Shown: one piece after another, positions 1-24,455 of the stretch
How the letters are laid out: the number at the start of each line of letters is the position of its first letter
How positions within the stretch are numbered: position 1 is the first letter of the stretch
DNA from: Dehalococcoidia bacterium
Lineage (GTDB): Bacteria > Chloroflexota > Dehalococcoidia > Plut-88900
NCBI GenBank assembly: GCA_965207225.1
Contig: CBDBLV010000002.1
Location: forward strand, 1 to 64,000
Direction of reading: 5' to 3'
Length of the DNA: 64,000 nucleotides
The notes under the pieces: model-generated
What the model saw: the letters and a program-made list of their open reading frames with translations, nothing else
What the model was told of the DNA's origin: nothing
Databases searched by the model: none
Translations under genes and position numbers: made by a program

Positions 1-361
1 TCAGCAGCCGGTTCAGCGAGTCGGCGGCGGCTCTCGTCTGCGGCGGCAGGTCGTCGGGTTGGGCCTCTTGCAGCTTCTCCCGCAGACCGCCAAGGCGCGG
101 CGGGTGCTGGCGCATGAGCAGCTGCACCGGGAAGTCGAGGGCGTTGAGCGCCCCGGCGAAGGCCCCAAGCTTCGGCTCGTCGATCTCCAGCCCCATCACC
201 TCGCACACGCCCAGCTGCACCCCGTCCAGCCGCACCGGGCCGTCCTCGCTCCAGGTGCGACAGCATGAAGAACAGGGGCAGGTCGGGCGGGAGTTTCGGC
301 GGGGCGGCTCCGAACGTGGAACGGGTCTTCGTTTCGGTGTTCGCATTGCGCGTCTGAACAT
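1..361 (-). pseudogene. N-terminus of a VirB4/TraC-associated conjugation protein, frameshifted, runs off window
   Basis: RBS AGGAGG before ATG at 361. After frameshifts the frame reads EDGPVRLDGVQLGVCEVMGLEIDEPKLGAFAGALNALDFPVQLLMRQHPP. Lies downstream of PrgI/pilin genes. Confidence 0.5.
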
Positions 362-419
362 CGCCCTCCTCTGAGGGATGCCGCTCTCCGCCTCTCATTC
401 AGGTTCAGAAAAAACTCTT

Positions 420-773
420 TCAACTTCGGTTCGCTCTCCTTTTCGTCACTAGGGGACTGGGGAATGGGCCGATGACGCCGTGGCTCAGCAGCGCGGCGAC
501 GCCCTTGGCGGAGCAGAACCAGCGCCAGGCCGATGACGGCCATGCACCACTGCGGTCTTGGCCCTGCCGCCGCCCCGCTCCTCCGCGCCCTCGGCCATCA
601 GGACGAACCCCGCCCAGACGACGGCGAAGACGGCGAGTCCGGCGGCGGCGTAGGCCATCGCGGTCAGCACCGCGTCGAAGGCGGCCAGCATCGCTTCGCT
701 CCTCGGCCGGGGCCGCGCCGACGGTCGCCAACGCAGCCCCGGCAAGGAGGATTGCCGTCCATGCCCGTCTCAC
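420..773 (-). pseudogene. TrbC/VirB2 pilin-like protein, split over several frames
   Basis: Joined frames give signal MRRAWTAILLAGAAL..., then AGLAVFAVVWAGFVLMAEGAEERGGGRAKTAVV-MAVIGLALVLL-AKGVAALL, a two-TM pilin pattern. Confidence 0.55.
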
Positions 774-2484
774 CAGAGCCTGCCCTCAGCTTGACTGGGG
801 GGCCACTCCCATCCCAACCGGCGGAACCAGTCGGTCAGGTCGCCGCCGGGCGTCTGCTCGGCGGGCGGGTCTTCGGGCTCGGGCTCCGGCAGAATGCCAG
901 CACCGCAAAGGCGTCGTCGGACCCGATTTCGGAGGCCAGGGATAGGGACTCTTCCCTTGTCTTGGTGAGGGGTTCCCGGTCGGTCGTCTCAGCCTTGATG
1001 TGCTCGGGATGGACGATGGTGAGGGTCACGTCCCTCTGCACCGTCTCGCCGGGCACCGACAGGGTGGCGGAGACGGTGTGCTCCGTGGTCGTTCCGTCGT
1101 CGCTGGTGACGGTGACCGTCTCGCTGACGGTCCGGGTCGTCCCCGGCCTGTACAGGCTCACCGTCTCGGTGCGCTTCTCCGTCCGCTCCGGGTGGTGGGT
1201 GAGCGTCGTCAGCGGAGGGATGGGGATGTTTAGGGTCGCCTCAAGGCTCACGTCCACGCTCACCGCGTGAAGGGCCTCGCCTGTGGGCACGGCGAGCCGG
1301 AAGCTCGTCTCCCCGTCGGGGACGAATGCGACGCTCGCGGTCGATGCTCCCGTCGTGGCAACGACCGTTCCCGTGATGGCAGTCACCCCGGCGTCCATGA
1401 GCGCCGTCTCGGTGACGCTCTCGTGTCCGGCCACCGTCTGAAGCTCGACCGGGTGCTCGACGGCGTCAACGCAGTCGGACTCGACGACGCCGGTGACGGA
1501 TCCCCGCCGTCCAGCCGAAGTGAGGTCATGCGTTCAGGTCGCATAGCTCGCCTTCAACGACGGGCAAGCGGATAGGGAATCTGCTCATGCTCTCGACGGT
1601 GAGCGCCCCCGCCTGTCCCAGCGCGTCCTCCCAGGAAACGGCAAAGGAGGGCATTGGTCCGTTGAGGGGCAGCGAATAGTCGATGCTCTCTCCCTCTGTC
1701 AGCGTCGCCGAGCCCCAGAAGCGCAGGGTCGTGCCCTGGCCGCCGCCGAAGGCTCTCACCCGGATGTCCAGGTCGGTGGCCGCTCTCAGGGTCACTGCGG
1801 CCCGGTCGCCGGAGACGGTAAGCGCCTCGACGAATATCCGCCGTCCCTCCACCGGCTCCGTGATCTCGAAGTCGATCTCGTCGCGCCACGGCTCGTGTCC
1901 GTCGGCAAGGACCGACTGGGGGACGGTCGCGGCGGCATCGCCACTGCGACGACCGCCATGACCGCTATCCAACCCTTCGGTCCGTGGCCCTGGCTGTCGC
2001 GGCCCGCCTTGCGGGAACGGCGCTTGCCGAACCAGCAGTGGGGTCGGAAGGGCTTTCTCTCCCCGTTGCGCTTCTGCTTCCTGCGGCGGCGCAGCCTCTT
2101 GAGGGTCTTTCCCACCCGCCTCGCCATCAGCCGTAGGGGGCCGGGGCCGCTCTTCACCGGCTGTACCGTGACTGGCGGCTCAGGCCGCACCAGTTGGGAC
2201 ACAGAACCTGCGTAGACCCTGGCTCCCAGCCGGTACTTGAGGAGGTCGGCGGCCACCAGCGGCAGCCGCCGACCTCCTATCTTTCCCACCACTACTGCGA
2301 TGCCCATCAGCCCGAACAGGACGGCGAATCCCATCCGCACCTCGGACGGCCCAACGGGTGCGTAGCGGTATGCGCCGTAGGACAGGGCGCACACCGCCAC
2401 CACCGCAACGATCTGCGGGAAGGTGAACCACAGCAGCACCCTGTCCTCGGCCTGCACGTGGGTCGGTACCTCGTGTTCTCTCAT
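770..2484 (-). pseudogene. PrgI-family membrane protein fused to a long beta-rich extracellular region; multiple frameshifts
   Basis: N-terminus MREHEVPTHVQAEDRVLLWFTFPQIVAV... is PrgI-like. ORFs 1792-2484, 1526-1972 and 835-1434 join through small indels. Final TGA at 770-772 overlaps the next GTG. Confidence 0.65.
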
Positions 2485-2515
2485 TCTTTTCCCCCCTTTC
2501 CTTCCTCACGTGCTC

Positions 2516-2797
2516 CTATTCATCTGCTTCGGCGTCGGGATCGGGCACATCTATCTCCACCGGGGAGCCGACGACCGCGTCCATCACCAGCTCGACGACC
2601 CCGTAGGCCACCATCGCCAGTACGATGCCCGCCAGGGCGGTCATCATGGCGCTCTTGCCGCGCTCCATCTGGTGGGGCGCTCCCGATGCCGTCAGGTACA
2701 GGTAGGCCCCGTAGATGAAGAAGCCCACGCCCACGACGCCCACGATTCCCAGCAGGATGCCCACCAGGTTCGATATGGTCTGTGTCAGGTTTTCCAT
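2516..2797 (-). CDS. TrbC/VirB2-family pilin
   Basis: 93 aa, two hydrophobic helices flanking YLYLTASGAPHQMERGKSAMMTALAG; good RBS. Confidence 0.75.
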   Translation of the reverse strand: MENLTQTISNLVGILLGIVGVVGVGFFIYGAYLYLTASGAPHQMERGKSAMMTALAGIVLAMVAYGVVELVMDAVVGSPVEIDVPDPDAEADE

Positions 2798-2952
2798 CTG
2801 TTTTTCTCCTCTCGTTCTTCGAGCCTTCCGCTCGTCTCTCTCGGTCGGTGTCCGTCAGCTCCGTCACATGCACATCGCTCTGCCTCCGTTGCGGGTTCGG
2901 TCGGCACGGATTGGGCCGCTCCTCTGTGATTTCGTCGTCGTTGTCCTTGAGA

Positions 2953-3922
2953 TCACTCGCCGGCGCTCCTGGGGGCCTCGCTGCCCGCGTCACCGCCGCC
3001 CGACGGGGTGGCCATGGAAGCCGCCGAGCTGAGGCCGCCAGCCGCCGCCGACAGCCCCGCGCTGGCGGCAACCGCGCCCACCGCAACGCCGCCCGGGCCT
3101 CCCGCCGCTCCTCCGGCCAAAAGCCCGATGGTCCGGGCCGACCGCACCATCGAGGCGGGCAGGTTCATCCCGAAGTAGAGGGTGGACAGCCAGGCGTCGA
3201 AGGTGCCGGCGTTGCCAAGAAGGGACGGCACCCTGGTCGCCATGTAGACGAAGGCCAACGACATCAACAGCTTCCACACCAGGTCCTGCACCGGCTCGAA
3301 GGCAGCGATGGCGGCGACCTCGTTCAGGAACCCGAATCCCAACGCCAGGGCGATGAGCTGGATCGCCTGCTGGAAGGTGGTCGTCATGAAGAGCCTGAGC
3401 CAGTGCCGCCCCCAGCCCGCCGTGTGCGGCAGAATCCACAGCCCCAGGGCTATGGGGGCCAACGCCAGCAGGATGTCGATCAACGCAAGGCGCAGGATCA
3501 TCTGCACGATGACGTAGAGGACGAAGAAACCGTAGACCAGGTAGAGAAGGGCCAGCAGCAACGCCATGCCCACGCTCCCCGCCTGAACTGCGGTGAGCAG
3601 AGTCTTGAGGGTTGAACGGAGCGGTGACGTTCAGTGATACCGCGACGAAGCCGGACACGGCGTCGGCAACGTCGATGACCAGGGCGCACCACCACAGGGA
3701 CGACGCCGCTGCAACGAGGCCGAGGACGAGCCTGGGGACCATCTCCCGCCAACCTGTCTGAGACCTTCCGAGGTGCTCGGACACGATGAGCGAGAGGCCC
3801 ATCCAGCCCAGGATCACGATTAGGGCGCCGGACGTGACGGCCCAGACGACCATCCACGCCTGCTGGACAAGGTCGTGGGCGTAGGTGAGGTCGGGAGGAG
3901 TCCCGGTGAGGATGTCGCTCAT
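2953..3922 (-). pseudogene. TrbL/VirB6-family polytopic conjugation protein, frameshifted near 3620
   Basis: ORF 2990-3922 N-half (WREMVPRLVLGLVAAASSLW) continues in ORF 2953-3573 (ILRLALIDILLALAPIALGLWILPHTAGWGRHW); Gly/Ala-rich tail. Confidence 0.8.
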
Positions 3923-3925
3923 GAG

Positions 3926-4531
3926 CTAACTCCCCTCACAGTTGTCGGCGTCCTCGCCCGAGGCCCGCTCCACCACGCCGCACAGCGTCCCGTGGACTCC
4001 CTCGATCACCCACCCGGCTGCGGCCCTGGCCCAACGGGAGGGGTTGAGGGCGCTCAGAATCTTGTCCCAGATGCGTCCCGGCTCGTGGATGGGGACGACG
4101 GCGTAGAAGTCTCCCTGCTTGCCGTCCTCGGCGTGAGCCAGCATGACCAGCAGGTAGGCCCTGTCGGGGTCGAGGTCGGGCTGCTCGTCCAGCCTGGGAT
4201 ACTCCCAGGAGTACTCTCAGCCGTCTGAGCGCTTCTTCTCGCCGCCCCTGACCCGGTACATGGCGGATATCCAGTCGCCGGTGTCGGCGTCGCGAACGGC
4301 GTAGAAGAGGTCTTGGAGCTTGCGGTCGAAGAGGGGCCGTGCGACGAACTCGCCGCCCTTCTTGCGCTCGACGAATTCTCTGTCGGTGTTGACCAGGGTG
4401 ATGTCGCCAGCGGGCGGCGATTGGGCCAGGGCGAGGTTGCTGGTGGGGACGGCGACCAGCGCCGCCAGCAGCAACGCAATCGCCAGCGGAATGAGCCGGC
4501 CATTTGACCGGAGCTTCGATTTCTGCGCCAA
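3926..4531 (-). pseudogene. Secreted hypothetical protein heading the conjugation operon; in-frame TGA at 4217-4219
   Basis: GAGGTG RBS + TTG at 4531, signal peptide LIPLAIALLLAALVAVP. Frame continues past TGA as SDG*EYSWEYPRLDEQPDLDPDRAYLLVMLAH into ORF 3926-4144. Confidence 0.65.
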
Positions 4532-4602
4532 GATGTTCACCTCTCGTGGTTTGCCGCGATTCGCCGGATCGCAGCCCTCGACAGAGAGTGTGAACAAATC
4601 AA

Positions 4603-4626
4603 ACGCCGAAAAAGACCCCACGCATG
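4603..4626 (-). promoter_or_regulatory. Conserved motif copy 1 (inverted partner at 5905-5927), upstream of conjugation operon
   Basis: ACGCCGAAAAAGACCCCACGCATG is the reverse complement of 5905-5927 apart from one extra A. Confidence 0.6.
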
Positions 4627-4820
4627 GTGGCACCATCCATGCCCTCTTATCTGAGGCCCGTTTCGTGCAGTATTGGGGGTGTACAGGAAATGGACTTTTG
4701 TGACTGAGTGGTCAAAGTCGTGATTTCGTAGCTAAATCAGGGGCAAAACCCCCTCTACAGGAGGTGAACGGTGAGCAATCTGATGAAAGGGCGGAGTCCG
4801 GTCTCCAATGACAAAAAGAG

Positions 4821-4912
4821 GCTTGAAGTGGGGGTGCATGACGCGGCCAAAATCGACGGCCCGATGACAAAAACGGCCGAAAAGTCCGCTTGAGGTGGGG
4901 GTGCGTTACGCG
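4821..4912 (+). repeat. Two 25-bp imperfect direct repeats upstream of the HTH gene
   Basis: GCTTGAAGTGGGGGTGCATGACGCG (4821-4845) vs GCTTGAGGTGGGGGTGCGTTACGCG (4888-4912), 22/25 identical. Each has ATGACAAAAA a short distance upstream. Confidence 0.75.
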
Positions 4913-4989
4913 AGGCGAGAGATCGTGCGAATCACGGACTTGGTGGAATTCATAGCTGGAACGAGTCTTCGGAGAAGGAGGAAATTGCC

Positions 4990-5884
4990 ATGAAGACGAC
5001 CGAACACGGCATCGAGGACAGCAGAGACATCGAGAACATGTACCACATGCGGCTCATGACGTTGCTGCAAGAGCTGGTGTGGGAGCGGGGATACAAGGGC
5101 GCGGCGCGGGTGTTGGAGATCGACCAGCGCACGGTGGCCGAGAGCGCCAGGACGGGGAGGCTGTCGCGGCGGATGCGGGAGTCCCTGGAGCGGGCCTTGC
5201 AGGAGGGCGTGGGTTCTGCGGCGGCCCGTCAGCGAGAGCGCAACGACGCCCTGGAGGAGCGCCTGGGGGAGTTGGAGAGCGGGATGGAGTCGCTGGGCAA
5301 GGAGGCGCGCAGGCGGCTGTCCAGGGTGGAGGGCGCGGTGGAGGCTCTGGCAAAGGAGGGCACAGTGAGTCCGAAGACGACCGGGGCCGGTCACGCCGGC
5401 GCCGGTCCCTCGGAGCAGAGCGCTGATAAAGGCGATGATGCAGGGTCAGTGAGCGAAGGAAGTCCTGCGTCAAAGTCGTCGATGCGGCGCGAGTACCCCG
5501 ATCTGGTGACCCTTGAGCCTGCCGATGACGACGAGGAGGTCTTCGGAGACGCCTGGTCCCTGATCGCCCTGTGGCGGGAATTGAAGGAGTCTCACCCCAA
5601 CGAGGGGAAGGGGCTTTGATTGGCTTATGGAGCGAGAGCGGCTGCTGGAGATGGAGCTTGCATTGCTGGAGGAGCACGGGATGACGCTGCCTCCGGAGAA
5701 GCAGCCCCTGCACGGCCTCGACCGCAGCGGCCAGGTCAGCTGGCGCAGGAAGGCCCTCTTCGACACGCGGAGAGGCGCGGGCCAGGCGCGAGGTCGTGAC
5801 CAAGGTGTGGCGGGCGCTCACTCTGAGGTGGTCGGCGGCCCTCGCAGTAGCGCCCGGCGTTGCGGATGCGGGAGTGAACTTTGA
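4990..5884 (+). pseudogene. Hypothetical protein with N-terminal HTH and coiled coil; frameshifted near 5616 and 5775
   Basis: GGAGG RBS; YKGAARVLEIDQRTVAES HTH-like. Removing one T in CTTTGAT restores GKGLDWLMERERLLEME (ORF 5627-5884). Confidence 0.6.
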
Positions 5885-5904
5885 AGCAATTTTCGGGGTG
5901 GGGG

Positions 5905-5944
5905 CATGCGTGGGGTCTTTTCGGCGTCGGAGACCTGCGATAAT
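5905..5944 (+). promoter_or_regulatory. Conserved motif copy 2 plus extended -10 (TGcGATAAT)
   Basis: CATGCGTGGGGTCTTTTCGGCGT at 5905-5927; GATAAT at 5939-5944. Confidence 0.55.
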
Positions 5945-6033
5945 TGCCTCACTGTTTGGCTTTCTCCAAGGTTTCCGACCATAGAAACCTGGGTGCGTGA
6001 TCCCTGTTGCACGGGCTTCGCCCAAGAGGGAAT

Positions 6034-6240
6034 GCTGGCAATGCGGAGTTTGACGTTGGTCCTTCGCAACCAGCGCGGGCCGATTCGACGGAGTTGACGC
6101 AAGGGCCTCCGTCCCCGGCTCAGTCCGGCGGTTGAAGTTTGACGTTGATCCCTCACCCGCTGGGCATAGGTCTGACGGCTGGGGTTGATCGCCTCATCCG
6201 TTGGGCCAAGGAGGACGGGTGCGCATGAGCGCCTCGTCCC
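6034..6240 (+). ncRNA. Putative structured RNA/ssDNA element: four tandem hairpins with TTGA(C/T) loops plus a fifth hairpin
   Basis: Stems at 6034-6074, 6077-6121, 6123-6165 and 6169-6207. Loop motifs at 6050, 6094, 6139 and 6185. Many G-T wobble pairs; no credible ORF. Confidence 0.55.
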
Positions 6241-6266
6241 CGGCAAACTGGTCGAAGTGCGCCTGG

Positions 6267-7997
6267 AGGCTGTCCCATAAGTGGGAAGTGACGGATAGCG
6301 CCCCGGCAGCTGTTCCGACGCGACATCTACGAAGAGATGAAGATGCCGCTTAGACCAGGGTTCGCTTTTACGACCCCAGCCGGGAAGTGATAGGGGAATG
6401 CTGGATTGAAGGGTGAGAGTTGTGTAGTAGCGGCAGTTGCTGTGAGAGAGTGGGGAGAGGCACTAGGCCGCGGATACTTGAGTGGAGGGGTCGGCTCCGG
6501 GTCTCCACGCCTTCCAGATAGTGCGGAGGTTGAAGGCGATGGCAAGCACCGTCCATTCGGCCTTCACGTTGGCAAGGCCACGCAACAGGAACCTCCGAGC
6601 CCTCAGTTGTTCCTTAAAGATCCCGAAGACCGGTTCGACCAGGTACTTCCTCCGTTTGTAGGCCGTCGTGGCTGCCTCGGTAGACATCCATTCTCTGTGA
6701 GCGCGCAGTACATGGTCGCGTGCCCCGATTTCTAGCTTGCGTCCCCGTGGGTAATCCTTGGTGCAGACCCCAAATGCGGGGCAACTGCGGCAGGCCGAGG
6801 CAGAGGCTGCTCGGTATACCCGGACCGGCGTTCCGGCGTTTGTGGACGAGCTGGAGAAGCGCAATATCTTTCCATGAGGACAGACGTACCTGTCGTTGCC
6901 CTCGTCATAGGTGAATCGGTCCTTGTGATAGGGATTGTCCAGTGGTCGGGCCATATCCGGCATTGCCACTTGCTGACCTTTACGGTGACTCGCCTCCAGG
7001 TTCCGGCCTCCACAATAACCGGCGTCTGCCAACGTCAACGGAGTCCTGGTTCCTGTAACACCCTCTGCCTGTTCCATCATCGGGGTCAACTGGAGGGCGT
7101 CATTGACTTGGTCCACAACGTCTACGGCGGTCAGCAGCATGCCGGTCGTCTGTCCGCCTGGTGCCAGCGGTGACACCATAGCTTGGGCGTTGTAGCTGGG
7201 CATGAAGCCCTGACGGGTCCTCATGAGTTTTGCATCCCGATCGGTGAGGTTGATGCGCTTGCGATTCCGCTCAGAAGCCAACTCGTCCATCGCATGACGA
7301 ATCTGCTCCCTCAGCGTTTGCTTGTTGGCTAATTCTTCCGGCAGATGTAATGCGGGGGTATCCTCACCTGCTTCGTTCTGAGCTTCAAGGTCGGAGATCG
7401 CCTTCTCCACCCTGTTCAATAACCGACCCAACTCCCCCGCATCGTAGGTCCTATCTCTTGCCGCATTGGCCCCCACCTTAGTTCCGTCAACCGCCTGCAC
7501 CGCCAGATCCACCAGCTTCATCGTCACCGCCGTGCGCACAGTGCGCTCGAACAGCTTCCTCATGGACTGCCTGTGTTCCTTGTAGAACCGCCACAAGGTG
7601 TTGTGGTCAGGATGCTGCCAGCCGGTCAGCCACAGATACGGTATCTGGTCCCGGCAGGCCGCCTCCAACTTGCGGCAGGAGCGCACCCCGGTCATGAAAC
7701 CGTACAGCCACACGCTCAACAAAGCGCGGGGATGGTAGGCCGGCGCTCCCATCGGGTCGCCGTCTATCTCCACGCCGAGTTCAGCCCAGCCTTCCCTATC
7801 CAGTGCGTCCACAAACTCGGCCACGAATCGGGCTGGATGGTCTAACGGCAACAGATCGTCAAGAGTCGGGGGCAACAGCCACATCTGTTCTCGGTCCATA
7901 TCTCGAAGCGGCATCTCCATCTCTCCTTCGTCGATGTCGCTTCAAAGGTACACCTAACAAGGTTCCATTCACCACTCCCCAACTTCTGAGACAGGCT
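6267..7997 (-). mobile_element. IS1182-family insertion sequence
   Basis: Imperfect terminal IRs AGGCTGTCCCATAAGTGGG / revcomp AGCCTGTCTCAGAAGTTGGG. CTGG occurs at both junctions (exact ends +/-2 bp). Confidence 0.85.
6463..7920 (-). CDS. IS1182-family transposase
   Basis: LPLDHPAR, GAPAYHP, SCRKLE, PDHNTLWRF, AVDGTK, LADAGY, CPHGK zinc knuckle and YKRRKYLVEPVFG motifs. Confidence 0.93.
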   Translation of the reverse strand: MEMPLRDMDREQMWLLPPTLDDLLPLDHPARFVAEFVDALDREGWAELGVEIDGDPMGAPAYHPRALLSVWLYGFMTGVRSCRKLEAACRDQIPYLWLTGWQHPDHNTLWRFYKEHRQSMRKLFERTVRTAVTMKLVDLAVQAVDGTKVGANAARDRTYDAGELGRLLNRVEKAISDLEAQNEAGEDTPALHLPEELANKQTLREQIRHAMDELASERNRKRINLTDRDAKLMRTRQGFMPSYNAQAMVSPLAPGGQTTGMLLTAVDVVDQVNDALQLTPMMEQAEGVTGTRTPLTLADAGYCGGRNLEASHRKGQQVAMPDMARPLDNPYHKDRFTYDEGNDRYVCPHGKILRFSSSSTNAGTPVRVYRAASASACRSCPAFGVCTKDYPRGRKLEIGARDHVLRAHREWMSTEAATTAYKRRKYLVEPVFGIFKEQLRARRFLLRGLANVKAEWTVLAIAFNLRTIWKAWRPGADPSTQVSAA

Positions 7998-8199
7998 GGC
8001 CTGTCGCCTCGGCCGGTTCGACATGTCTGCGGGATGGCTGGCACGCGGCTACACCGCAGCTACGACACGCGCCGGATGCTCCTATAGATGTTGTTAGTGC
8101 TAACTCTAAACTGACCCAGTAGCGCTAATTTGGAATTGACCCACCCCGATAGCGGACGCATCTTCGTCGGGAAACCGATTAGGAGGTGCAGCAAGTCAA

Positions 8200-9435
8200 A
8201 TGATAGGAGGTGGGTTAGTGAGAGAGTTATACGAGTTGAAGGGCGATGGAAGCTCGATCCGAGGGATATCGAGGGAGTTGGGGATTTCCCGGAACACCGT
8301 GCGCAAGTACGTGCGCTCCGACGAGGTGCCCAAGGCCAAGCGGCGAGAGAAGCAGGGGTCGAAGCTGGACCCATACAAGGGTCACATAGATGGTCGGCTG
8401 TCGGCGGGAGTGGACAACTGCGTGGTGCTGCTGCGGGAGATCCGGGAGTTGGGCTACGACGGCAGCTATCCGACGCTGACCAACTACGTGCGGCCTCGGC
8501 GTCGGCCGCGTCAGCCCCGTGCGACGGTGCGGTTCGAGACGGCGCCAGGCGAGCAGGCACAGGTGGACTGGGGCAGCTTCGCCTATGTCGGAGAGGACGG
8601 GCGCAAGCACCGGGTCTGGGCCTTCGTGATGGTGCTGAGCTGGTCTCGGACCATCTACGTGGAGTTCGTCCGGCGCGCCGACGTGGCGACCTTCATCAGG
8701 TGCCACGTGAACGCCTTCGAGTACTTCGGTGGTGTTCCCCGCCGCTGCCTGTACGACAACGCCAAGGTGGTGGTCCTGGGGCGTGACAGGGAGGGCAGGC
8801 CGGAGTGGAACAGCCGGATGCTGGACTTCTCACTGCGAATGGGCTTCGACCTCCGTCTGTGCCGACCCTACCGAGCGCAGACGAAGGGCAAGGTGGAGAG
8901 CGGCGTGAAGTACGTCCGGGGCAACCTGTGGCCCGGTGTCCGCTTCACCGACGACGCAGACATGAACCGCCAGGCCCTGGAGTGGTGCGATGCGGTGGCC
9001 AATCGGCGAGTCCATGGGACGACGCACCGGGTCCCCCGAGAGATGCTGGCTGAGGAGCTCGCCCACCTGGGCAGCCTGCCGCCGCGTTCGGGCCTTGCGC
9101 CCTACATGCGGGAGGAGCGGAAGGTGGCCAGGGACGGCTACGTCCACTGGGAGAGGTCTCGCTACGGCGTGCCCTGGAGCTGGGCGGGTTCGACGGTCCA
9201 GGTGGGTGTGCGGGCCGGTACGGTGGAGGTCTGGTCGGGCGACGTGCGGCTGGCGGTGCATCCCCAAGCCCAGCGGACCGGTCAGCGCCTCACACTGCCG
9301 GGCCAGTGGGACGGACTGCCCGGCGGCGATGATCGTCCTCGTAAGGAAGCCGTGGCGGTGCAGATCCCTGTGGGCCAGGTGGAGCGCCGCTCCCTGGAGG
9401 TGTACGAGTTGGCAGCGGTGGGAGGTGGGCGATGA
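8200..9435 (+). CDS. istA: IS21 transposase
   Basis: HTH ISRNTVRKY, RFETAPGEQAQVDWG, YDNAK, QTKGKVESGVKY, NRRVHGTT. Confidence 0.95.
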   Translation: MIGGGLVRELYELKGDGSSIRGISRELGISRNTVRKYVRSDEVPKAKRREKQGSKLDPYKGHIDGRLSAGVDNCVVLLREIRELGYDGSYPTLTNYVRPRRRPRQPRATVRFETAPGEQAQVDWGSFAYVGEDGRKHRVWAFVMVLSWSRTIYVEFVRRADVATFIRCHVNAFEYFGGVPRRCLYDNAKVVVLGRDREGRPEWNSRMLDFSLRMGFDLRLCRPYRAQTKGKVESGVKYVRGNLWPGVRFTDDADMNRQALEWCDAVANRRVHGTTHRVPREMLAEELAHLGSLPPRSGLAPYMREERKVARDGYVHWERSRYGVPWSWAGSTVQVGVRAGTVEVWSGDVRLAVHPQAQRTGQRLTLPGQWDGLPGGDDRPRKEAVAVQIPVGQVERRSLEVYELAAVGGGR

Positions 9436-10235
9436 TCGCGCTGGAACAGGCTCGCCAGCACCTGGAGACGCTGGGCCTCAAGCAGGCCGTCGAAGCCCTG
9501 GACAACTCCCTGGACGCTGCGGCCACCAAGAAACTGACCTACCCCGAGATGCTGGCAGAGCTACTCGGCGTGGAAGTGGCCGCCCGGAAGGAGCGGTACA
9601 TGTCCACCAGGACGAAGCTGGCTCACCTCCCCTTCCACCGGACCTTGGAGCAGTTCGACTTCTCGTTTCAGCCCTCCATCGACGAGCGACAGGTGCGGGA
9701 ACTGGCCGGCCTGTCCTTCGTCGCCGAAGCCACCAACCTGCTGCTCCTGGGACCGCCAGGTGTGGGCAAGACCCATCTGGCGGTGGCCCTAGCGCTCAAG
9801 GCCATCGAGAAGAGCCAGGGGGCCTACTTCGTCCGAGCCTACGACCTGATGGAGGACCTGAGGAAGGCCAGGGTGGAGAACAACCTCCAACGGCGCATGC
9901 GGGTCTACCTGTCGCCCAAGCTACTCATCGTGGACGAGTTCGGCATCTGGCCTTACGACCGGGACGCCTCCACCGCCTTCTTCACCCTGGTGTCGGCTCG
10001 CTATGAGCGGGGCAGCATCATCCTCACCTCCAACAAGGGCTTCGCCGAGTGGGGTGAGCTTCTGGGCGATACCGTCATCGCCTCGGCCATCCTGGACCGG
10101 CTGCTGCACCACAGCCACGTCCTCAACATCCGAGGCGAGAGCTACCGGCTTAAAGGCAAGAGGCAGGCCGGACTCTTCGCCTCCCATCAACTGCTATCGA
10201 CATCGCCTGAAGCCGCTAGCTCCGGCGACGTCTAA
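9432..10235 (+). CDS. istB: IS21 helper AAA+ ATPase
   Basis: Walker A GPPGVGKT, LLIVDEFG, SIILTSN, AILDRLLHH, GESYR; ATGA overlap with istA. Confidence 0.95.
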   Translation: MIALEQARQHLETLGLKQAVEALDNSLDAAATKKLTYPEMLAELLGVEVAARKERYMSTRTKLAHLPFHRTLEQFDFSFQPSIDERQVRELAGLSFVAEATNLLLLGPPGVGKTHLAVALALKAIEKSQGAYFVRAYDLMEDLRKARVENNLQRRMRVYLSPKLLIVDEFGIWPYDRDASTAFFTLVSARYERGSIILTSNKGFAEWGELLGDTVIASAILDRLLHHSHVLNIRGESYRLKGKRQAGLFASHQLLSTSPEAASSGDV

Positions 10236-10534
10236 ATCCCAGAGGCACTCTTGCTTGCCAGAAAGGAGGCGACTTAACGACAAGGTGGGTCAGTTCTAAC
10301 TTAGCGGAAAAGGGTCAAATCTAACTTAGCATTGACAATGTCAAGCGACTGCGATGAACTCTTCGCAGGCTGGCCGCTTCACGTCTCGCAGCTCTTCCCC
10401 ACTGACCGACTTCACCTTGGGCGAGCTGCGTCTTCTTTCACCCCGGTCTCCCATGCGTTTGCATCGCTGGCGGTCCGGGTGCGTCTTAGGAACGGAGTCA
10501 ACGGCACACAACATTGAGCAAGGAGGTAACGCAC

Positions 10535-11049
10535 ATGGACGAATCAAGGGCACAGGACAACGGAGAAGGAGGTACGAGCATGGCGGAGCAGTACGTCGGA
10601 CCCAGCGCGGCGCGGATCGCAGACCTGCTTCCGCATCGCGTGAGTTTCCACAACGGGTGGTTCTGGACCAGCACGGCGGTGTGCCACGGCGGGAAGTCCG
10701 ATGGGCTGGCGTTTCGGCAGAGGCCCGACGGCAACGGCATCGACGTACGGTGCCACACACGGGGCTGCGGTCGGGCGTGATGGTCACCGAGCTTGAGGCC
10801 CTCACCGGTCTGCCGATCTGGACGGCCTGCGAGCCGGTCAGGGACGCGGCGGTTGGGGCTGAGGCCAAGAAACCCTGGTGGAAGCGGAAGAAGGTCGTGG
10901 TGGCCGGGGTCGTCGCCCTGGTCGTCGCCGCGCCGCTGCTCACCCTCGACCTGGAGCTGTTCTTCCTGAACCTGTTCGGCCTGGGCATCGGCTGGCTGCT
11001 GCTCAGGCGGTTCATGCCCCGTCGTTCGGCGCGGAGGTTCCGTCGCTGA
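10535..11049 (+). pseudogene. Primase-type Zn-binding-like domain fused to C-terminal TM hairpin; 1-nt frameshift near 10777
   Basis: AAGGAGGT RBS. VCHGG...VRCHTRGC in one frame continues as VMVTELEALTG...VVVAGVVALVVAAPLL in another. Confidence 0.5.
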
Positions 11050-11178
11050 CGGCTTCGGGCTTCTCACAACCCATCACAACACGCAGGGGTCGCTCTCTCC
11101 GAGGGCGGCCCCTACTTCTTTGCCCGCAAGCGGGCGTAACGGATTCAAGGCAACACACAGGCACGAAGGAGGTGCGTA

Positions 11179-11685
11179 ATGACGACGGCAACGGCAGCAA
11201 TCGGCACTTGGACGATGGAGACCACAGAGACGATGCGGCCCAGGCGCAGCCTGGAGGAACTGGTGGACCGGGTGTTCGCGGCGATGGGATTCACGGGGGA
11301 GACGGAGACTCAGCCGGTTGAGCGGAGCGCAACCCGCTCCATCCACGAGGCGAGGCGGCTCAGGCAGGCCGGGGACATCGACAACGCGCTGGCAGTGCTG
11401 GGAGACGTGAACGTGGCTGGGGCCACGCCGAGGGAGGTCCGCTGGGCCTTCTCCGAGTGGAAGCAGATGGTCAGGCGGCGGTTCGAAGACCGGGGCGCCG
11501 TGCTCTACAGCCAGGGCACGGGCAGGGCCTCGGCGCTGGTTCCCCACGGCGACGGGACGCTGGAGGTGGCTGCGGTCCTGGGAATGCGCTGGCGGCCCGG
11601 CAAGGTCGTTTCGGGGCGCAGCCTCCGGGGCCTCCAGCCTCTCGTATCGAGTACGAGGCAGGCTCTAGCGAAGGCTTGCCCTTGA
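11179..11685 (+). CDS. Hypothetical protein (ICE-borne)
   Basis: Strong RBS AAGGAGGT, ATG, 168 aa with GC3-rich codons. Confidence 0.7.
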   Translation: MTTATAAIGTWTMETTETMRPRRSLEELVDRVFAAMGFTGETETQPVERSATRSIHEARRLRQAGDIDNALAVLGDVNVAGATPREVRWAFSEWKQMVRRRFEDRGAVLYSQGTGRASALVPHGDGTLEVAAVLGMRWRPGKVVSGRSLRGLQPLVSSTRQALAKACP

Positions 11686-12017
11686 TCCGGCTCTCCGCAC
11701 CCTCCTCGGTCGCATCGGCGGCGCGGTTGTTCTTGCAACCTGGGCGAGGACGCGCTGCCTTCTTACACCTGCTTGCTTGGGCCGAGTGCGCCGCTAGCTA
11801 GCTCTCCCCTCGTCCCGACTCTCCACATCGTTTGCCACGCCGGAGCCTGACCAGTACAGCGACACGGAGGACGCCGCAGCCGGCCATCGGCCACAACGAC
11901 AACACAAAACCCACGGAGACAGTCCCGGCCATTCGGGACAACCAATTCAGAGCGGGACTGTCTCCACCCCACGGGGGTGGTAGGCCGTCCCGCTTCTTCA
12001 TTGAAAGGAGAAGCGAC

Positions 12018-23697: not shown

Positions 23698-23837
23698 TTG
23701 AGGTTCCCCAATCCCACTGTCCATGAGTACCTGAGTTTTCCGTTGCTATTGCGTTGGTCGTATGACGGCATAAGGTGAGTGGGGATGATGGGGGTCGGGG
23801 GCCGAAAGCGTGGTTTCGGCGTGCTAAAATCGCGGGT

Positions 23838-24455
23838 ATGAGCATGGGTCTGGATAGCAATGGGCGTCGGTTGGCGGAGCGGGTGGGGGAAGTAGTCGAG
23901 AGTGATTCGACGGCGTTCGAGGCGCAGTGCTACCGGCTACAGGAGCCTCCTGCCCTGGGGAGCCTTGTGGTGGCGGATGATGGAGAGATGGAGGTGTTAG
24001 GGGTGGTGTCGGGGGCGGGGACTTCGTCGATACAGCCGGGGAGGAGGGCGCTGGCGCGGGGGGAGGACGAAGAGTCGGTGGAATCCCTGTATGCGAACAA
24101 TCCGCAGATAGAGAAGCTGTTGATGACTGCTTTCAGGGTGGAGATTGTCGGGTACGGGGATGCCGGGACGATAATTCAGCGGCTGCCGGCCCGACCACCC
24201 AAAGTCCATTCGTTTGTGTATGGGTGCTCTGCAGAAGAGCAGGCCGCATTTGGGGAGTCGTTGGAATTTCTTAGCATTCTAGTCGGGGGTAGAGGGGAGG
24301 CAGGGGACCAGCTGATCGGGGCTTGCTTGAGGCAGCTGAGCGCGGCGACAGATGACCCCCGGGAGTTCCTGGTCAGGGCAGGGAAGGCGTTGACGGTGAT
24401 CTGGGCATCGGAGCCGCAGAGGCTGTACACGCTGCTTGCGGGGATAAGGCCGTGA
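23838..24455 (+). CDS. HAS-barrel domain protein (HerA-associated)
   Basis: VGEVVESDSTAFEAQCY..PPALGSLV..LPARPPKVHSFV; GTGA overlap with herA. ATG 7 nt after TAAAAT. Confidence 0.8.
   Translation: MSMGLDSNGRRLAERVGEVVESDSTAFEAQCYRLQEPPALGSLVVADDGEMEVLGVVSGAGTSSIQPGRRALARGEDEESVESLYANNPQIEKLLMTAFRVEIVGYGDAGTIIQRLPARPPKVHSFVYGCSAEEQAAFGESLEFLSILVGGRGEAGDQLIGACLRQLSAATDDPREFLVRAGKALTVIWASEPQRLYTLLAGIRP

What the first reader, a model, noticed from the sequence alone, without database searches (positions are those of the whole stretch)
6034..6207. Array of four ~45-nt hairpins, each displaying a TTGA(C/T) loop: candidate decoy/sponge RNA or ssDNA signal
Seen: four adjacent bulged stem-loops whose stems differ in sequence but keep pairing (TGCGGAG/CTTCGCA, GACGGAG/CTCCGTC, GTCCGGCGG/CCGCTGGGC, GGTCTGACGG/CCGTTGGGCC). 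The loops are conserved: TTGACG at 6050, 6094 and 6139, TTGATCG at 6185 (spacing 44, 45, 46 nt). Abundant G-T wobbles favour folding of the + strand. The array starts ~90 nt after a TGcGATAAT -10. Established: repeated loop motifs on variable stems is how protein-titrating RNAs such as CsrB are built, and TTGAC resembles the sigma70 -35 box. Inference: an undescribed multivalent protein-binding ncRNA or single-strand transfer signal of this ICE family. I recognise no known family here.
Basis: partly seen in the sequence, partly recalled or inferred. Interest (0 to 1): 0.85.

Follow-up and report, generated by a model that had tools for sequence, protein, structure and literature searches.

The report
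Large hairpin-array RNA of Dehalococcoidia ICEs
The four hairpins are real and form the middle of a previously undescribed, highly conserved, roughly 0.4-0.9 kb structured RNA (most likely a regulatory leader) carried by conjugative elements of Dehalococcoidia, although the copy in this window has been broken by two insertion sequences.

Summary
Window 6034-6207 folds into four stem-loops on the + strand only, with the stated motifs at the stated positions.

It is not a free-standing 174-nt element. It is the middle of a non-coding stretch of about 400-890 nt (median 600; partly capped). This stretch lies between a 281-aa gene and a 171-aa gene of a ~28-kb integrative conjugative element (ICE).

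- **Distribution:** 9 close and 7 divergent copies in this genome, and in 113 of the 118 loci then held.
- **Promoter:** a -10 box sits at a fixed distance upstream in 91 of 105 loci.
- **Non-coding:** there is no codon periodicity.
- **Strand and chemistry:** it folds better than shuffles only as sense-strand RNA, z -2.84. Antisense RNA gives +0.32 and sense DNA +0.38.
- **Stems:** they covary.
- **Modules:** 1-8 recognised per locus, spaced 40-49 nt, with TTGAC-type always before TTGATCG-type.
- **Known families:** no Rfam match.

In the TTGAC modules, GAC pairs with GUC, so only UU(U) is unpaired.

The window copy is cut by insertion sequences at 6265/6266 and about 8075/8076.

Best reading: a new structured leader RNA with multivalent hairpins. 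Function is unproven. Expression evidence is weak.

The parts
4990..5884 (+). Upstream gene of the module ('p281'; helical, N-terminal HTH-like). Here it is split by a frameshift into 4990-5619 and 5627-5884.
   Evidence: ORFs. The intact 281-aa version is in copy L003:1916-2761(-). Homologues precede the RNA in the related loci. No Pfam family. Model.
5936..5944 (+). Extended -10-like promoter element TGcGATAAT (hexamer 5939-5944).
   Evidence: Read. A (G/A)ATAAT-type hexamer sits at one fixed position relative to the conserved RNA start in 91 of 105 non-redundant loci. No conserved -35.
5950..6033 (+). Conserved 5' domain of the RNA. P1 hairpin 5966-5992. P2 5993-5996/6009-6012. P3 6013-6016/6020-6023. 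Tentative pseudoknot UCCCU 6001-6005 with AGGGA 6027-6031.
   Evidence: Alignment A2 and pair counts. P2 pair UA:58 / GC:30. CM R1 hits 94 of 99 loci. Pseudoknot is tentative.
6034..6074 (+). Hairpin module 1 (type A: GGAG-UUU-GAC-GUUG-GUC-CUUC).
   Evidence: Fold. Covariation (H1 outer stem 98.0% paired of 198 cells; CG:17 / GC:11 at one pair).
6077..6121 (+). Hairpin module 2 (type A; the tip helix is degenerate in this genome).
   Evidence: Fold. H2 outer stem 97.4% paired of 192 cells.
6123..6165 (+). Hairpin module 3 (type A; inner stem and tip are degenerate in this genome, canonical in relatives).
   Evidence: Fold. Alignments. H3 outer stem 82.6% paired of 350 cells.
6169..6207 (+). 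Hairpin module 4 (type B: 7-nt loop UUGAUCG on a GGGG/CCUC inner stem and a 10-bp G-U-rich outer stem).
   Evidence: Fold. 109 type B modules are 87.5% paired, against 38-52% when slid. Covariation score 0.377 against 0.303 shuffled (0 of 500).
6213..6239 (+).
   Evidence: Folds. Conserved in the alignment.
5950..6265 (+). Piece 1 of the interrupted RNA gene.
   Evidence: Homology to uninterrupted copies ends at 6265.
6266..7998 (-). Insertion sequence (485-aa transposase ORF 6463-7920) that cuts the RNA gene.
   Evidence: Copies at 99.7-100% identity elsewhere in the genome, and homology of the flanks to uninterrupted ICE copies. ORF. Junction read. The transposase ORF was not scanned against a family library; 'transposase' and 'IS' rest on its copy number and my reading of the ORF.
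7999..8075 (+). Piece 2 of the interrupted RNA gene.
   Evidence: 97.4% identical to C4:720005-719929 and two other copies. Read.
8076..10349 (+). Second insertion sequence, which I read as IS21-like (ORFs 8200-9435 and 9432-10235; multi-copy core 8092-10337). Borders are approximate.
   Evidence: Four other copies at 99.7-100% identity. ORFs. Junctions read. The IS21 name is my recognition of the two-ORF layout, not a family scan.
10350..10534 (+). Piece 3 of the RNA gene: the conserved 3' part with the pyrimidine tract GCUGCGUCUUCUUUCACCCC and the ribosome-binding site AGGAGG at 10521-10526. The start is approximate.
   Evidence: Read. Conserved 3' consensus over 65 loci.
10535..11049 (+). 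Downstream gene of the module ('p171': Cys/His zinc-ribbon-like N-terminal domain plus two C-terminal membrane helices). Here it meets a stop after 81 codons (frameshift).
   Evidence: Translation. Intact 171-aa version at L003:733-1248(-). Alignment A6. Model (low confidence).

Best explanation
The hairpins are the central, modular part of a large structured RNA of about 0.4-0.9 kb.

It is transcribed rightwards from a conserved -10 promoter about 7 nt upstream of window position 5950. It runs as a leader into the operon p171 - p167 - 4xHTH regulator of a serine-recombinase/T4SS ICE of Dehalococcoidia.

Its layout is:
1. A conserved 5' domain of three short helices, possibly with a pseudoknot.
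2. A tandem array of ~41-48-nt hairpin modules. Type A or C modules (GGAG-UU(U)-GAC-loop-GUC-CUUC, or GGAG-UGAUAAGCC-CUUC) always precede type B modules (GGRG-UUGAUCG-CYUC).
3. A conserved 3' domain ending at the ribosome-binding site.

Shown: conservation, synteny, non-coding nature, sense-strand RNA-specific folding, stem covariation, and modularity.

Inferred: the repeated, nearly invariant apical motifs on variable stems are multivalent docking sites for a trans-acting factor. That factor could be an element- or host-encoded protein, or another RNA loop. Its occupancy would set how much of the downstream regulatory operon is made, through attenuation, RNA stability or access to the ribosome-binding site, and so whether the ICE becomes active.

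The copy in the window is an inactivated relic. The RNA gene is split by two IS elements, and both flanking genes are frameshifted.
For: Repetition and synteny:
- 9 copies of 5885-6265 in the own genome, and 16 matches to the 5'-domain model R1.
- Homologous DNA at 67-86% identity over up to 581 nt in 28 of 400 other genomes sampled from the class.
- The 5' motif is present in 113 of the 118 loci then held, always downstream of the p281 homologue.
- R1 hits 94 of 99 loci.

Conservation and coding:
- Nucleotide diversity of the non-coding stretch is 0.239, no higher than the 0.276 of the neighbouring CDS.
- The codon-phase diversity ratio is 1.06-1.07 in the array and 3' part, against 1.63-1.97 in the CDS control.
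- 92 of 105 loci have stops in all three forward frames of the array.

Promoter: a (G/A)ATAAT hexamer at a fixed position in 91 of 105 loci.

Folding of the intact 555-nt copy:
- Sense RNA: -249.9 kcal/mol, z -2.84, 0 of 100 shuffles as good.
- Antisense RNA: z +0.32.
- Sense DNA: z +0.38.

Covariation:
- Type B: 87.5% of 1634 cells paired against 38-52% slid; 112 double-change cells against 50.9 +/- 9.5 in shuffles (0 of 500).
- Type A inner stem and tip: 92.6% of 768 cells paired against 31-60% slid; score 0.246 against 0.179 (0 of 500).
- Outer stems: 98.0, 97.4 and 82.6% paired.
- G-U pairs make up 356 of 1634 cells (B) and 72 of 768 cells (A). These fit the sense strand only.

Modularity:
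- 95 of 103 loci have 1-8 recognised modules.
- The order (A/C)*B* holds in 95 of 95.
- Core spacing is 40-49 nt in 281 of 317 intervals.
- Strict module cores occur in the own genome only within 1 kb downstream of R1 hits (9 of 9 type A, 10 of 10 type B).

Leader-like ending: no terminator-like site was found, and conservation continues to the ribosome-binding site.

Weak RNA evidence: in four metatranscriptome runs from three studies, contigs of relatives cover the 5' domain and first hairpins at word depth 13-28. Flanking genes reach 0-8. One contig, seen in two runs, ends 2 nt past L003:1813, about 7 nt after the -10 box.
Against: - No direct proof of transcription. The RNA-run evidence is from assembled contigs of relatives, cannot show strand or ends reliably, and the runs were found with this very stretch.
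- No canonical -35 and no consensus sigma-70 promoter by scan.
- No binding partner identified. p281, p171 and p167 have no family match. The p281 model has no PDB match better than E 0.83.
- The loop conservation figures in A3 and A4 are partly circular, because modules were collected with a regex on the loop and inner stem. Independent support comes only from flank-anchored alignments and a census of 32 loci (81 of 83 hairpins).
- Much of the 5' domain is invariant, so it says little about structure. The pseudoknot has only four covarying sequences, from one clade, and a weak shuffle control.
- Related sequences are not independent, so shuffle-based counts overstate significance.
- The reverse strand is often free of stops (only 12 of 105 loci have stops in all three reverse frames). 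The case against an antisense ORF therefore rests on the missing periodicity and the non-3n module indels.
Confidence: 0.5

Rival explanations
1. Stand-alone trans-acting sponge or decoy RNA. The transcript, or a processed fragment holding the array, accumulates and titrates an RNA-binding protein through its repeated loops, as CsrB/RsmZ do for CsrA. It would not act in cis on the downstream genes.
For: - Variable numbers of near-identical apical motifs on divergent stems.
- Its own -10 box.
- Metatranscriptome contigs cover mainly the 5' half, not the flanking genes (weak).
Against: - No terminator between the array and the next gene, and conservation runs on to the ribosome-binding site.
- Strict synteny with p171.
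- No GGA-in-loop motif, because GGAG is in the stem.
- No match to CsrB/Rsm models in Rfam.
- No candidate partner protein.
Confidence: 0.15
2. Single-stranded DNA signal of the transferred strand. The hairpins would form in ssDNA after conjugative transfer and act as a single-strand origin or priming signal (sso, G4-type ssi) or as part of oriT.
For: - Orientation-specific hairpins inside an ICE.
- The next gene encodes a Cys/His zinc-ribbon-like protein. Its only lead is a weak resemblance (Atlas score 0.86) to CHC2 DnaG-type zinc ribbons, which read ssDNA templates.
- Multi-hairpin priming signals are known from phage G4 and from plasmids (recalled, not checked here).
Against: - With DNA energy parameters the sense strand folds no better than shuffles, z +0.38, with 66 of 100 shuffles as good. 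As RNA it gives z -2.84.
- G-T wobbles make up 22% of type B stem cells and appear as covariation intermediates (GC/GU/AU series). That is typical of RNA and destabilising in DNA.
- A conserved double-strand-type -10 box lies exactly at the 5' edge of conservation.
- The relaxase-like gene is ~10 kb away.
- The recalled ssoA hexamer TAGCG(T/A) occurs in 4 of 103 loci and not in the window copy.
Confidence: 0.1
3. Self-assembling 'ornate' RNA. The palindromic GAUC in the type B loops (and UGAUUCG in the P3 insert) would form loop-loop kissing contacts within or between molecules. The result would be a dimer or higher oligomer whose architecture, rather than a bound protein, is the functional unit.
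For: - GAUC is present in 106 of 109 type B loops (the collection was biased by the regex).
- Large size and many helices.
- Kissing loops and palindromic pairing are the commonest intermolecular motifs of natural RNA multimers, according to passages of the review PMC12990946.
- UUGA fits the YUNR U-turn loop motif of fast-pairing antisense RNAs (recalled from Franch et al. 1999, not checked here).
Against:
- At least 32 of 103 loci, including this genome's close copies, have a single recognised type B module.
- A 4-nt palindrome is a weak contact on its own.
- No similarity to ROOL, GOLLD, OLE or raiA models.
Confidence: 0.1
4. Double-stranded DNA operator or iteron array. TTGAC(G) and TTGATCG repeats at ~44-bp spacing would be binding sites for an element-encoded HTH protein, for example the 4xHTH_3 regulator two genes downstream.
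For: - Repeated short motifs at regular spacing.
- A protein with four HTH_3 domains is encoded nearby.
Against: - It does not explain compensatory changes in the stems, the G-U-specific strand asymmetry, or the conserved 5' and 3' structured domains.
- The module number varies from 1 to 8.
Confidence: 0.05
5. Neutral accumulation of REP/MITE-like hairpin repeats in a long intergenic spacer, with no function of its own.
For: Hairpin number varies, and single modules are gained or lost between close copies.
Against: - Strict module cores are found nowhere else in the 4.03-Mb genome (9 of 9 and 10 of 10 lie downstream of R1 hits).
- The region is at least as conserved as the adjacent CDS.
- The module order is fixed.
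- The stems covary.
Confidence: 0.03

Closest known systems
CsrB / RsmX-Y-Z protein-sponge RNAs
   Same: A variable number of tandem stem-loops that repeat one short apical motif on otherwise divergent stems. The copy number differs between relatives.
   Different: - The motif is not GGA in a loop.
- No Rfam match.
- No terminator, and fixed synteny with a downstream gene.
- Much larger, with conserved non-repetitive 5' and 3' domains.
- No CsrA-like partner identified.
Long regulatory leaders of conjugation or regulatory operons in Gram-positive mobile elements (Tn916 orf12 leader, pCF10 prgQ, pLS20 conAn). Recalled, not checked here.
   Same: A long structured 5' region with its own promoter, placed ahead of genes that decide whether the element transfers.
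   Different: - No sequence or model similarity.
- No leader peptide or antisense partner found.
- A tandem hairpin array of this type is not a feature of those leaders, as far as I recall.
Large ornate RNAs of mobile elements (ROOL, GOLLD, HEARO, OLE)
   Same: Several hundred nucleotides long, many helices, carried by mobile DNA, function initially unknown. Possible palindromic loop contacts (for the general principle).
   Different: - No match to any of their Rfam models.
- Leader-like position.
- A repetitive modular core rather than a unique fold.
Single-strand origins and priming signals (ssoA/ssoU, ICEBs1 sso1, G4-type ssi, Frpo). Recalled, not checked here.
   Same: Orientation-dependent multi-hairpin non-coding region of a conjugative element.
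   Different: - The fold is significant only with RNA parameters.
- G-U-rich stems.
- A conserved duplex-type -10 box at the 5' edge.
- The recalled CS-6 hexamer is absent from most loci.
Type III toxin-antitoxin RNA repeats (ToxI)
   Same: Tandem ~40-nt RNA units directly upstream of a protein gene on mobile DNA.
   Different: - The units are not near-identical direct repeats. TRF finds only one weak 2.4-copy array at 75% matches.
- The downstream protein has no ToxN-like family match.
- No terminator between the repeats and the gene.

Membership tests
Any Rfam 15 family (includes CsrB/Rsm, STAXI, ROOL, GOLLD, HEARO, OLE, group II intron domains) | Covariance-model match at or near the family's gathering score. 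| tested here: not met
   - Window 5500-6700 at E<=10: 3 matches, all E>8 and far below gathering score, none inside 5885-6265.
- Intact copy L003 (3376 nt): 4 matches. The best is ftsZ-DE, 27 bits against a gathering score of 72.2, and it lies outside the RNA region.
CsrB/RsmZ-type sponge RNA | Many GGA motifs exposed in hairpin loops or single-stranded linkers. | tested here: not met
   GGAG/GGRG is the 5' arm of the inner stem and pairs with CUUC/CYUC (92-94% of cells paired). The loops are UUGAUCG or a variable 3-5-mer.
CsrB/RsmZ-type sponge RNA | An independent gene ending in an intrinsic terminator. | tested here: not met
   No terminator-like site in L003:1100-2100. Conservation continues to the ribosome-binding site of p171.
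CsrB/RsmZ-type sponge RNA | Binds and titrates a cognate RNA-binding protein. | not testable with these tools
   No partner identified. Neighbouring proteins have no RNA-binding family or fold match.
Single-strand origin / ssi signal | Stable secondary structure of the single DNA strand. | tested here: not met
   With DNA parameters: MFE -108.7 kcal/mol, z +0.38, 66 of 100 shuffles fold as well.
Single-strand origin (ssoA type) | Conserved CS-6 hexamer TAGCG(T/A) in a terminal loop (motif recalled from memory). | tested here: not met
   Present in 4 of 103 loci and absent from the window copy.
Single-strand origin / oriT | Orientation-dependent priming or nicking activity on ssDNA. | not testable with these tools
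   This needs a biochemical or genetic assay.
Type III TA antitoxin RNA (ToxI-like) | Near-identical tandem direct repeats followed by a ToxN-family endoribonuclease gene. | tested here: not met
   TRF finds one array, period 40, 2.4 copies, 75% matches. The downstream 171-aa protein has 0 Pfam families.
Structured cis-regulatory leader RNA (generic kind under which I file it) | Own promoter, same strand as and contiguous with the downstream gene, conserved structure with covariation, non-coding. | tested here: met
   -10 box in 91 of 105 loci. Synteny. Covariation. No codon periodicity. No terminator.
Structured cis-regulatory leader RNA (generic kind under which I file it) | Shown to be transcribed and to change expression of the downstream gene. 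| tested here: inconclusive
   Only contigs of relatives in four metatranscriptome runs, with no strand information. The regulatory effect is not testable here.

The most novel reading that the evidence does not exclude
This would be a new class of large, modular 'ornate' RNA carried by integrative conjugative elements. A pseudoknotted head is followed by an expandable rack of hairpins. Their U-turn-like UUGA and palindromic GAUC apices would either kiss each other to build an RNA-only multimer, or act as a multivalent decoy that captures a host or ICE factor when the element switches on. The array length (1-8 recognised modules) would tune valency.
Probability: 0.15. Interest if true: 0.85.

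Novelty: new variant of a known kind. Interest (0 to 1): 0.68.

Why it matters
New large structured bacterial RNAs are rare, and most known ones were found in well-sampled phyla.

This one has several notable properties:
- It is 0.4-0.9 kb long and conserved at least as well as the protein gene beside it.
- It is present in over a hundred loci of uncultured Dehalococcoidia, and in up to 16 copies in one genome.
- It sits at the junction between the transfer genes and the regulatory genes of an ICE.
- It has an unusual expandable architecture: an ordered array of two or three hairpin types.

If it controls ICE activation, it would be a handle on gene flow in a symbiont lineage that cannot be cultured. 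A near-identical copy in another class of the phylum suggests recent exchange.

For RNA biology it offers a natural series of 1-8-module variants for testing how valency and loop identity matter.

For annotation it is a ready covariance-model target that explains a recurrent ~0.6-kb 'empty' gap in these ICEs.

Tried and rejected
**Known families and collections**
- Rfam at permissive thresholds on the window region and on an intact copy: nothing credible.
- Plasmid and phage collections, blastn 'distant' mode with the 581-nt intact region: no match in either.
- Consensus promoter and terminator scan of the intact copy: 0 of each.

**Antisense ORF.** The - strand carries a 142-aa ORF at 5818-6246. 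The reverse strand lacks stops in many loci: only 12 of 105 have stops in all three reverse frames. I rejected a coding role because diversity shows no 3-nt periodicity and whole modules of 40-49 nt come and go.

**Pseudoknot in the 5' domain.** 87 of 94 sequences have at least 5 complementary bases, but the per-sequence shuffle control is weak (median 0.39; 2 of 94 at <=0.05). I keep it as tentative only.

**Anti-Shine-Dalgarno idea.** A conserved pyrimidine tract about 100 nt before the ribosome-binding site pairs with it in the MFE of one copy. This was not tested across loci and is not claimed.

**Function of the neighbouring genes**
- No Pfam, NCBIfam or PHROG family for p281, p171 or p167. 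One sub-threshold NCBIfam hit for p281 (18.6 bits against a cut-off of 123) was ignored.
- p281 model: pLDDT 74.4, pTM 0.36. The best PDB match has E 0.83. Cro-like HTH matches have E>1.
- p171 model: pLDDT 60.4, too poor to search with.
- Atlas leads are below 0.9 and count only as leads.

**First module census.** double-counted overlapping regex matches. It is replaced.

**Hairpin census.** My anchor for the array's end matched only 32 of the loci.

**RNA-run depth.** Parts of the stretch without cover, and differences in depth, cannot rank expression. I use them only as a weak hint.

**Run shares.** DNA holders labelled 'sponge metagenome' hold 0.21-0.32 of the sampled words.

**Literature.** Four full-text searches found no paper on this RNA or on these ICEs. 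Only the listings and abstract starts were seen. For PMC12990946 three passages were read. Supplements were not consulted.

Full report
**1. The observation**

TTGACG begins at 6050, 6094 and 6139, TTGATCG at 6185, and TGcGATAAT lies at 5936-5944.

RNAfold of 6020-6215 on the + strand gives four separate stem-loops: 6034-6074, 6077-6121, 6123-6165 and 6169-6207. MFE is -88.3 kcal/mol, z = -2.10, and 7 of 200 dinucleotide shuffles fold as well. The - strand gives z = -0.05, with 89 of 200 shuffles as good. Energy alone is therefore suggestive but not compelling. The case rests on comparison with relatives.

**2. Context in the window and genome**

The stretch 5885-6265 occurs nine times in the 4.03-Mb genome. 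Six copies are 95-100% identical, one is 89%, and two are partial at 80-91%.

Blast of window 1-12000 against the genome shows that these copies belong to a multi-copy element.

It also shows that the window copy is interrupted:
- Homology to uninterrupted copies stops at 6265.
- An IS occupies 6266-7998 (485-aa ORF on the - strand; other copies are 99.7-100% identical).
- Homology resumes at 7999-8075.
- A second IS occupies about 8076-10349. It has two ORFs that I read as IS21-like, and a multi-copy core at 8092-10337.
- Homology resumes again at about 10350 (junctions read).

An uninterrupted copy is L003 (G000:C4, element on the - strand). There a 281-aa gene (p281) ends about 100 nt before the conserved non-coding region. 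A 171-aa gene (p171) starts about 570 nt after the region begins, and a 167-aa gene follows.

In the window p281 is frameshifted (4990-5619 and 5627-5884). The p171 homologue meets a stop after 81 codons. The window therefore holds a decayed copy.

**3. The element is an ICE**

On the C4 copy the repeated unit is about 28 kb.

Genes called by codon-position GC and scanned with Pfam are:
- two large serine recombinases;
- a small HTH_3 protein;
- a 553-aa protein with a Replic_Relax match (E 1.4e-5);
- an 843-aa coupling-protein-like ATPase (TrwB_AAD_bind, TraG-D_C);
- a 764-aa VirB4/TraC-like ATPase;
- TrbL/VirB6.

All of these lie on the strand opposite to the RNA. On the RNA's strand come p281, the non-coding region, p171, p167 and a protein with four HTH_3 domains. 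A Calx-beta surface protein of 1600 aa follows on the opposite strand.

Titles of related records name Dehalococcoidia or Chloroflexota MAGs.

**4. Relatives**

- A blast of the intact 581-nt region against 400 other genomes sampled from the class found matches in 28. Identity was 67-86% over up to the whole length.
- A scan of the species-representative genome collection used a 14-sequence alignment of p281 (A1). It confirmed 348 of 375 candidate stretches and returned the best 80 as loci.
- An nhmmer profile of the first ~98 nt of the region finds it in 113 of the 118 loci then held. It always lies downstream of the p281 homologue on the same strand.
- After removing identical copies, 105 regions remain.
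- A covariance model of the 5' domain plus the first hairpin (R1) has these hits:
  - 94 of 99 loci searched;
  - 16 places in the own genome, nine at 135-145 bits and seven at 35-62 bits;
  - 1 of 150 other genomes sampled across the phylum. That genome belongs to a different class and scores 141 bits, as high as the own copies.
- There is no match in the plasmid or phage collections.

**5. Non-coding, with a promoter at its edge**

The distance from the conserved start to the ribosome-binding site of p171 has a median of 600 nt and a range of 397-889. The script set 600 as a default where no AGGAGG was found, so the median is partly capped.

Nucleotide diversity by codon phase is flat in the array (ratio 1.06) and in the 3' part (1.07). 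It is 1.63-1.97 in the p281 coding control. Overall the non-coding stretch is no more variable than the CDS (0.239 against 0.276).

92 of 105 loci have stop codons in all three forward frames within the array. The reverse strand is often open (12 of 105 with stops in all frames), as expected for 64% G+C DNA. It shows no periodicity, and whole modules of 40-49 nt are gained and lost.

Homology among divergent copies begins just after a -10-like box. Anchored on the invariant GGCUUU, the best TATAAT-like hexamer sits at one position in 91 of 105 loci. The hexamers are GATAAT (44), AATAAT (40) and GACAAT (5), with the remaining 16 loci spread over other hexamers.

No conserved -35 exists. The consensus scan finds neither a sigma-70-type promoter nor an intrinsic terminator in the intact copy.

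**6. Structure**

The intact 555-nt region was folded three ways:
- As sense RNA it gives -249.9 kcal/mol, z = -2.84, and none of 100 shuffles is as good.
- As antisense RNA it gives z = +0.32.
- As sense single-stranded DNA it gives z = +0.38.

The 5' domain has three features:
- a 9-bp bulged hairpin P1;
- a 4-bp P2 whose second pair is U-A in 58 sequences and G-C in 30;
- a P3 that hosts a variable insert hairpin.

A pseudoknot between UCCCU in the P2 loop and AGGGA after P3 is possible. 87 of 94 sequences have at least 5 complementary bases, and four distant sequences have CCCG(A)/(U)CGGG. The control is weak, so I call it tentative.

**7. The hairpin modules**

Modules were collected with regular expressions on the inner stem and apex, which biases the loop statistics. 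They were then aligned.

*Type B* (109 distinct modules, A3) has a ~10-bp outer stem, a 5-bp inner stem and the loop UUGAUCG.
- 87.5% of 1634 cells are standard pairs, against 38-52% when the 3' partners are slid by 1-3 columns.
- 112 cells have changes on both sides, against 50.9 +/- 9.5 in shuffles (0 of 500 reach it).
- The covariation score is 0.377, against 0.303 shuffled and at most 0.161 slid.

*Type A* (96 modules, A4) has this inner stem and tip:
- 92.6% of 768 cells are paired, against 31-60% slid.
- The score is 0.246, against 0.179 shuffled (0 of 500).
- The GAC of the 'TTGAC' motif pairs with GUC (90.6% of cells).
- UU or UUU is a bulge (93 of 96 modules).
- The true apical loop varies: GUUG in 51 modules and many other sequences in the rest.

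Outer stems, analysed by position in the array, are 98.0%, 97.4% and 82.6% paired. One pair in H1 swaps between CG (17) and GC (11).

G-U pairs make up 356 of 1634 type B cells and 72 of 768 type A cells. These would be A-C mismatches on the other strand.

A third apex, GGAG-UGAUAAGCC-CUUC (type C), replaces type A in some lineages.

*Census after merging overlapping matches*:
- 95 of 103 loci have 1-8 recognised modules, with a mode of 5.
- Type A or C modules always precede type B (95 of 95).
- Successive cores are 40-49 nt apart in 281 of 317 intervals. They are 82-90 nt apart, meaning one unrecognised module between them, in 30.
- The window has AAAB.
- The eight loci without recognised modules include a distant group. 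In the member I folded (L030), longer repeat units with a different apex appear in the same place (seen in the fold, not analysed further).

In an unbiased but small census, 81 of 83 top-level hairpins of at least 25 nt, in the arrays of 32 loci, carry one of the three apices.

In the own genome the strict module cores occur only within 1 kb downstream of R1 hits: 9 of 9 type A and 10 of 10 type B. They are therefore not dispersed REP-like repeats.

**8. Expression**

One run search listed 24 runs. Six were RNA libraries, each holding about 0.05 of the sampled words.

Four of these, from three studies and all kept as assembled contigs, were laid on L003:1-3376 at 80% likeness or better.
- Contigs of relatives cover L003 about 1600-1813, which is the 5' domain and the first hairpins, at summed word depth 13-28 in two runs. 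Flanking genes reach 0-8.
- A 179-nt contig present in two runs ends 2 nt beyond L003:1813. This corresponds to window ~5951, about 7 nt after the -10 box.
- Contigs cannot show strand. DNA can contaminate RNA libraries. The runs were selected with this very stretch. I therefore treat all this as a weak hint only.

**9. What it most likely is**

The data fit a transcribed, structured RNA far better than an ssDNA signal, a dsDNA site array or neutral repeats.

Several features make a cis-acting leader of the p171-p167-4xHTH operon the most economical reading:
- its own promoter;
- the lack of a terminator;
- conservation up to the ribosome-binding site;
- invariable synteny with p171.

The nearly invariant apices on covarying stems, repeated a variable number of times in fixed order, suggest multivalent recognition by a trans factor.

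I could not identify that factor:
- p281 is all-helical with a probable N-terminal HTH and no fold match.
- p171 has a conserved C-H...C-H-x3-C cluster, two membrane helices, and only a weak lead to CHC2 primase-type zinc ribbons.
- p167 has no match.

UUGA fits the YUNR U-turn motif of fast-pairing antisense loops (recalled). GAUC is palindromic. RNA-RNA kissing, within or between molecules, therefore remains open. Passages of a 2026 review list kissing loops and palindromic pairing as the usual contacts in natural RNA multimers.

**10. Novelty**

No Rfam 15 family matches. Four full-text literature searches found nothing on this RNA or on these ICEs (listings only).

I file it as a new RNA family of a known general kind: structured regulatory RNA of a mobile element with repeated hairpins. 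It is not a member of CsrB/Rsm, sso, ToxI or any large ornate RNA family.

Noticed in passing
window 6266-7998 and 8076-10349: Two different insertion sequences have landed inside the same ~0.6-kb RNA gene. Both are multi-copy in the genome at 99.7-100% identity (five other copies of the first, four of the second core).
   Followed up: partly
window 4990-5884 and 10535-11049: Both genes flanking the RNA are frameshifted in the window copy. p281 is split at 5619/5627. p171 stops after 81 codons. Together with the IS hits, this ICE copy looks inactivated, while the C4 copy (L003) is intact.
   Followed up: yes
own genome, 16 places: A 4.03-Mb genome carries 16 matches to the RNA's 5'-domain model, nine close and seven divergent. 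This implies many related ICEs or ICE remnants. It may contribute to the 8.3% 'contamination' estimate for the assembly.
   Followed up: partly
G521:C1:360517-360660: A genome of a different class in the same phylum holds a copy scoring 141 bits, as high as the own genome's copies. This suggests recent transfer of the element across classes.
   Followed up: no
L030 (fold); group L027-L032: A distant group keeps the 5' hairpin P1. In the member I folded (L030), the A/B modules are replaced by longer repeated units of about 68 nt with a GUGACUUGUUGCGCC-type apex. In that locus at least, the modular principle outlives the particular motif.
   Followed up: no
L003:1262-1400 (-) and window 10400-10445; consensus: A conserved pyrimidine tract GCUGCGUCUUCUUUCACCCC lies about 100 nt before the ribosome-binding site, with a second UGCGUCUUC copy nearer the gene. 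In the MFE of one copy the tract pairs with the AAGGAGG region, so it may sequester the ribosome-binding site.
   Followed up: partly
alignment A2 columns 77-114, e.g. L021, L046: The P3 helix of the 5' domain carries a lineage-specific insert hairpin. In many loci its apex reads GGA-UGAUUCG-CUC, resembling the type B loop.
   Followed up: no
L003:733-1248 (-), alignment A6: p171 has an invariant C50-H51 ... C73-H74-x3-C78 cluster and two predicted C-terminal membrane helices. The only lead is a weak Atlas resemblance (0.86) to CHC2 DnaG-type zinc ribbons.
   Followed up: partly
window 14309-23146 (-) and 23775-26071 (+): A 2945-aa ORF with a fibronectin type III domain is followed by HAS-barrel and HerA-like (DUF87) ATPase genes. 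In the C4 copy a 1600-aa Calx-beta protein follows the module instead, so the cargo appears to differ between copies.
   Followed up: no
window 5886-5895 and 5938-5947: GCAATTTTCG upstream is complementary (9 of 10) to CGATAATTGC, which overlaps the -10 box (I1). In the C4-type copies the box pairs instead with a different upstream G-run (by eye). The pairing partner is therefore not conserved, and I did not treat it as an Frpo-like ssDNA promoter.
   Followed up: partly
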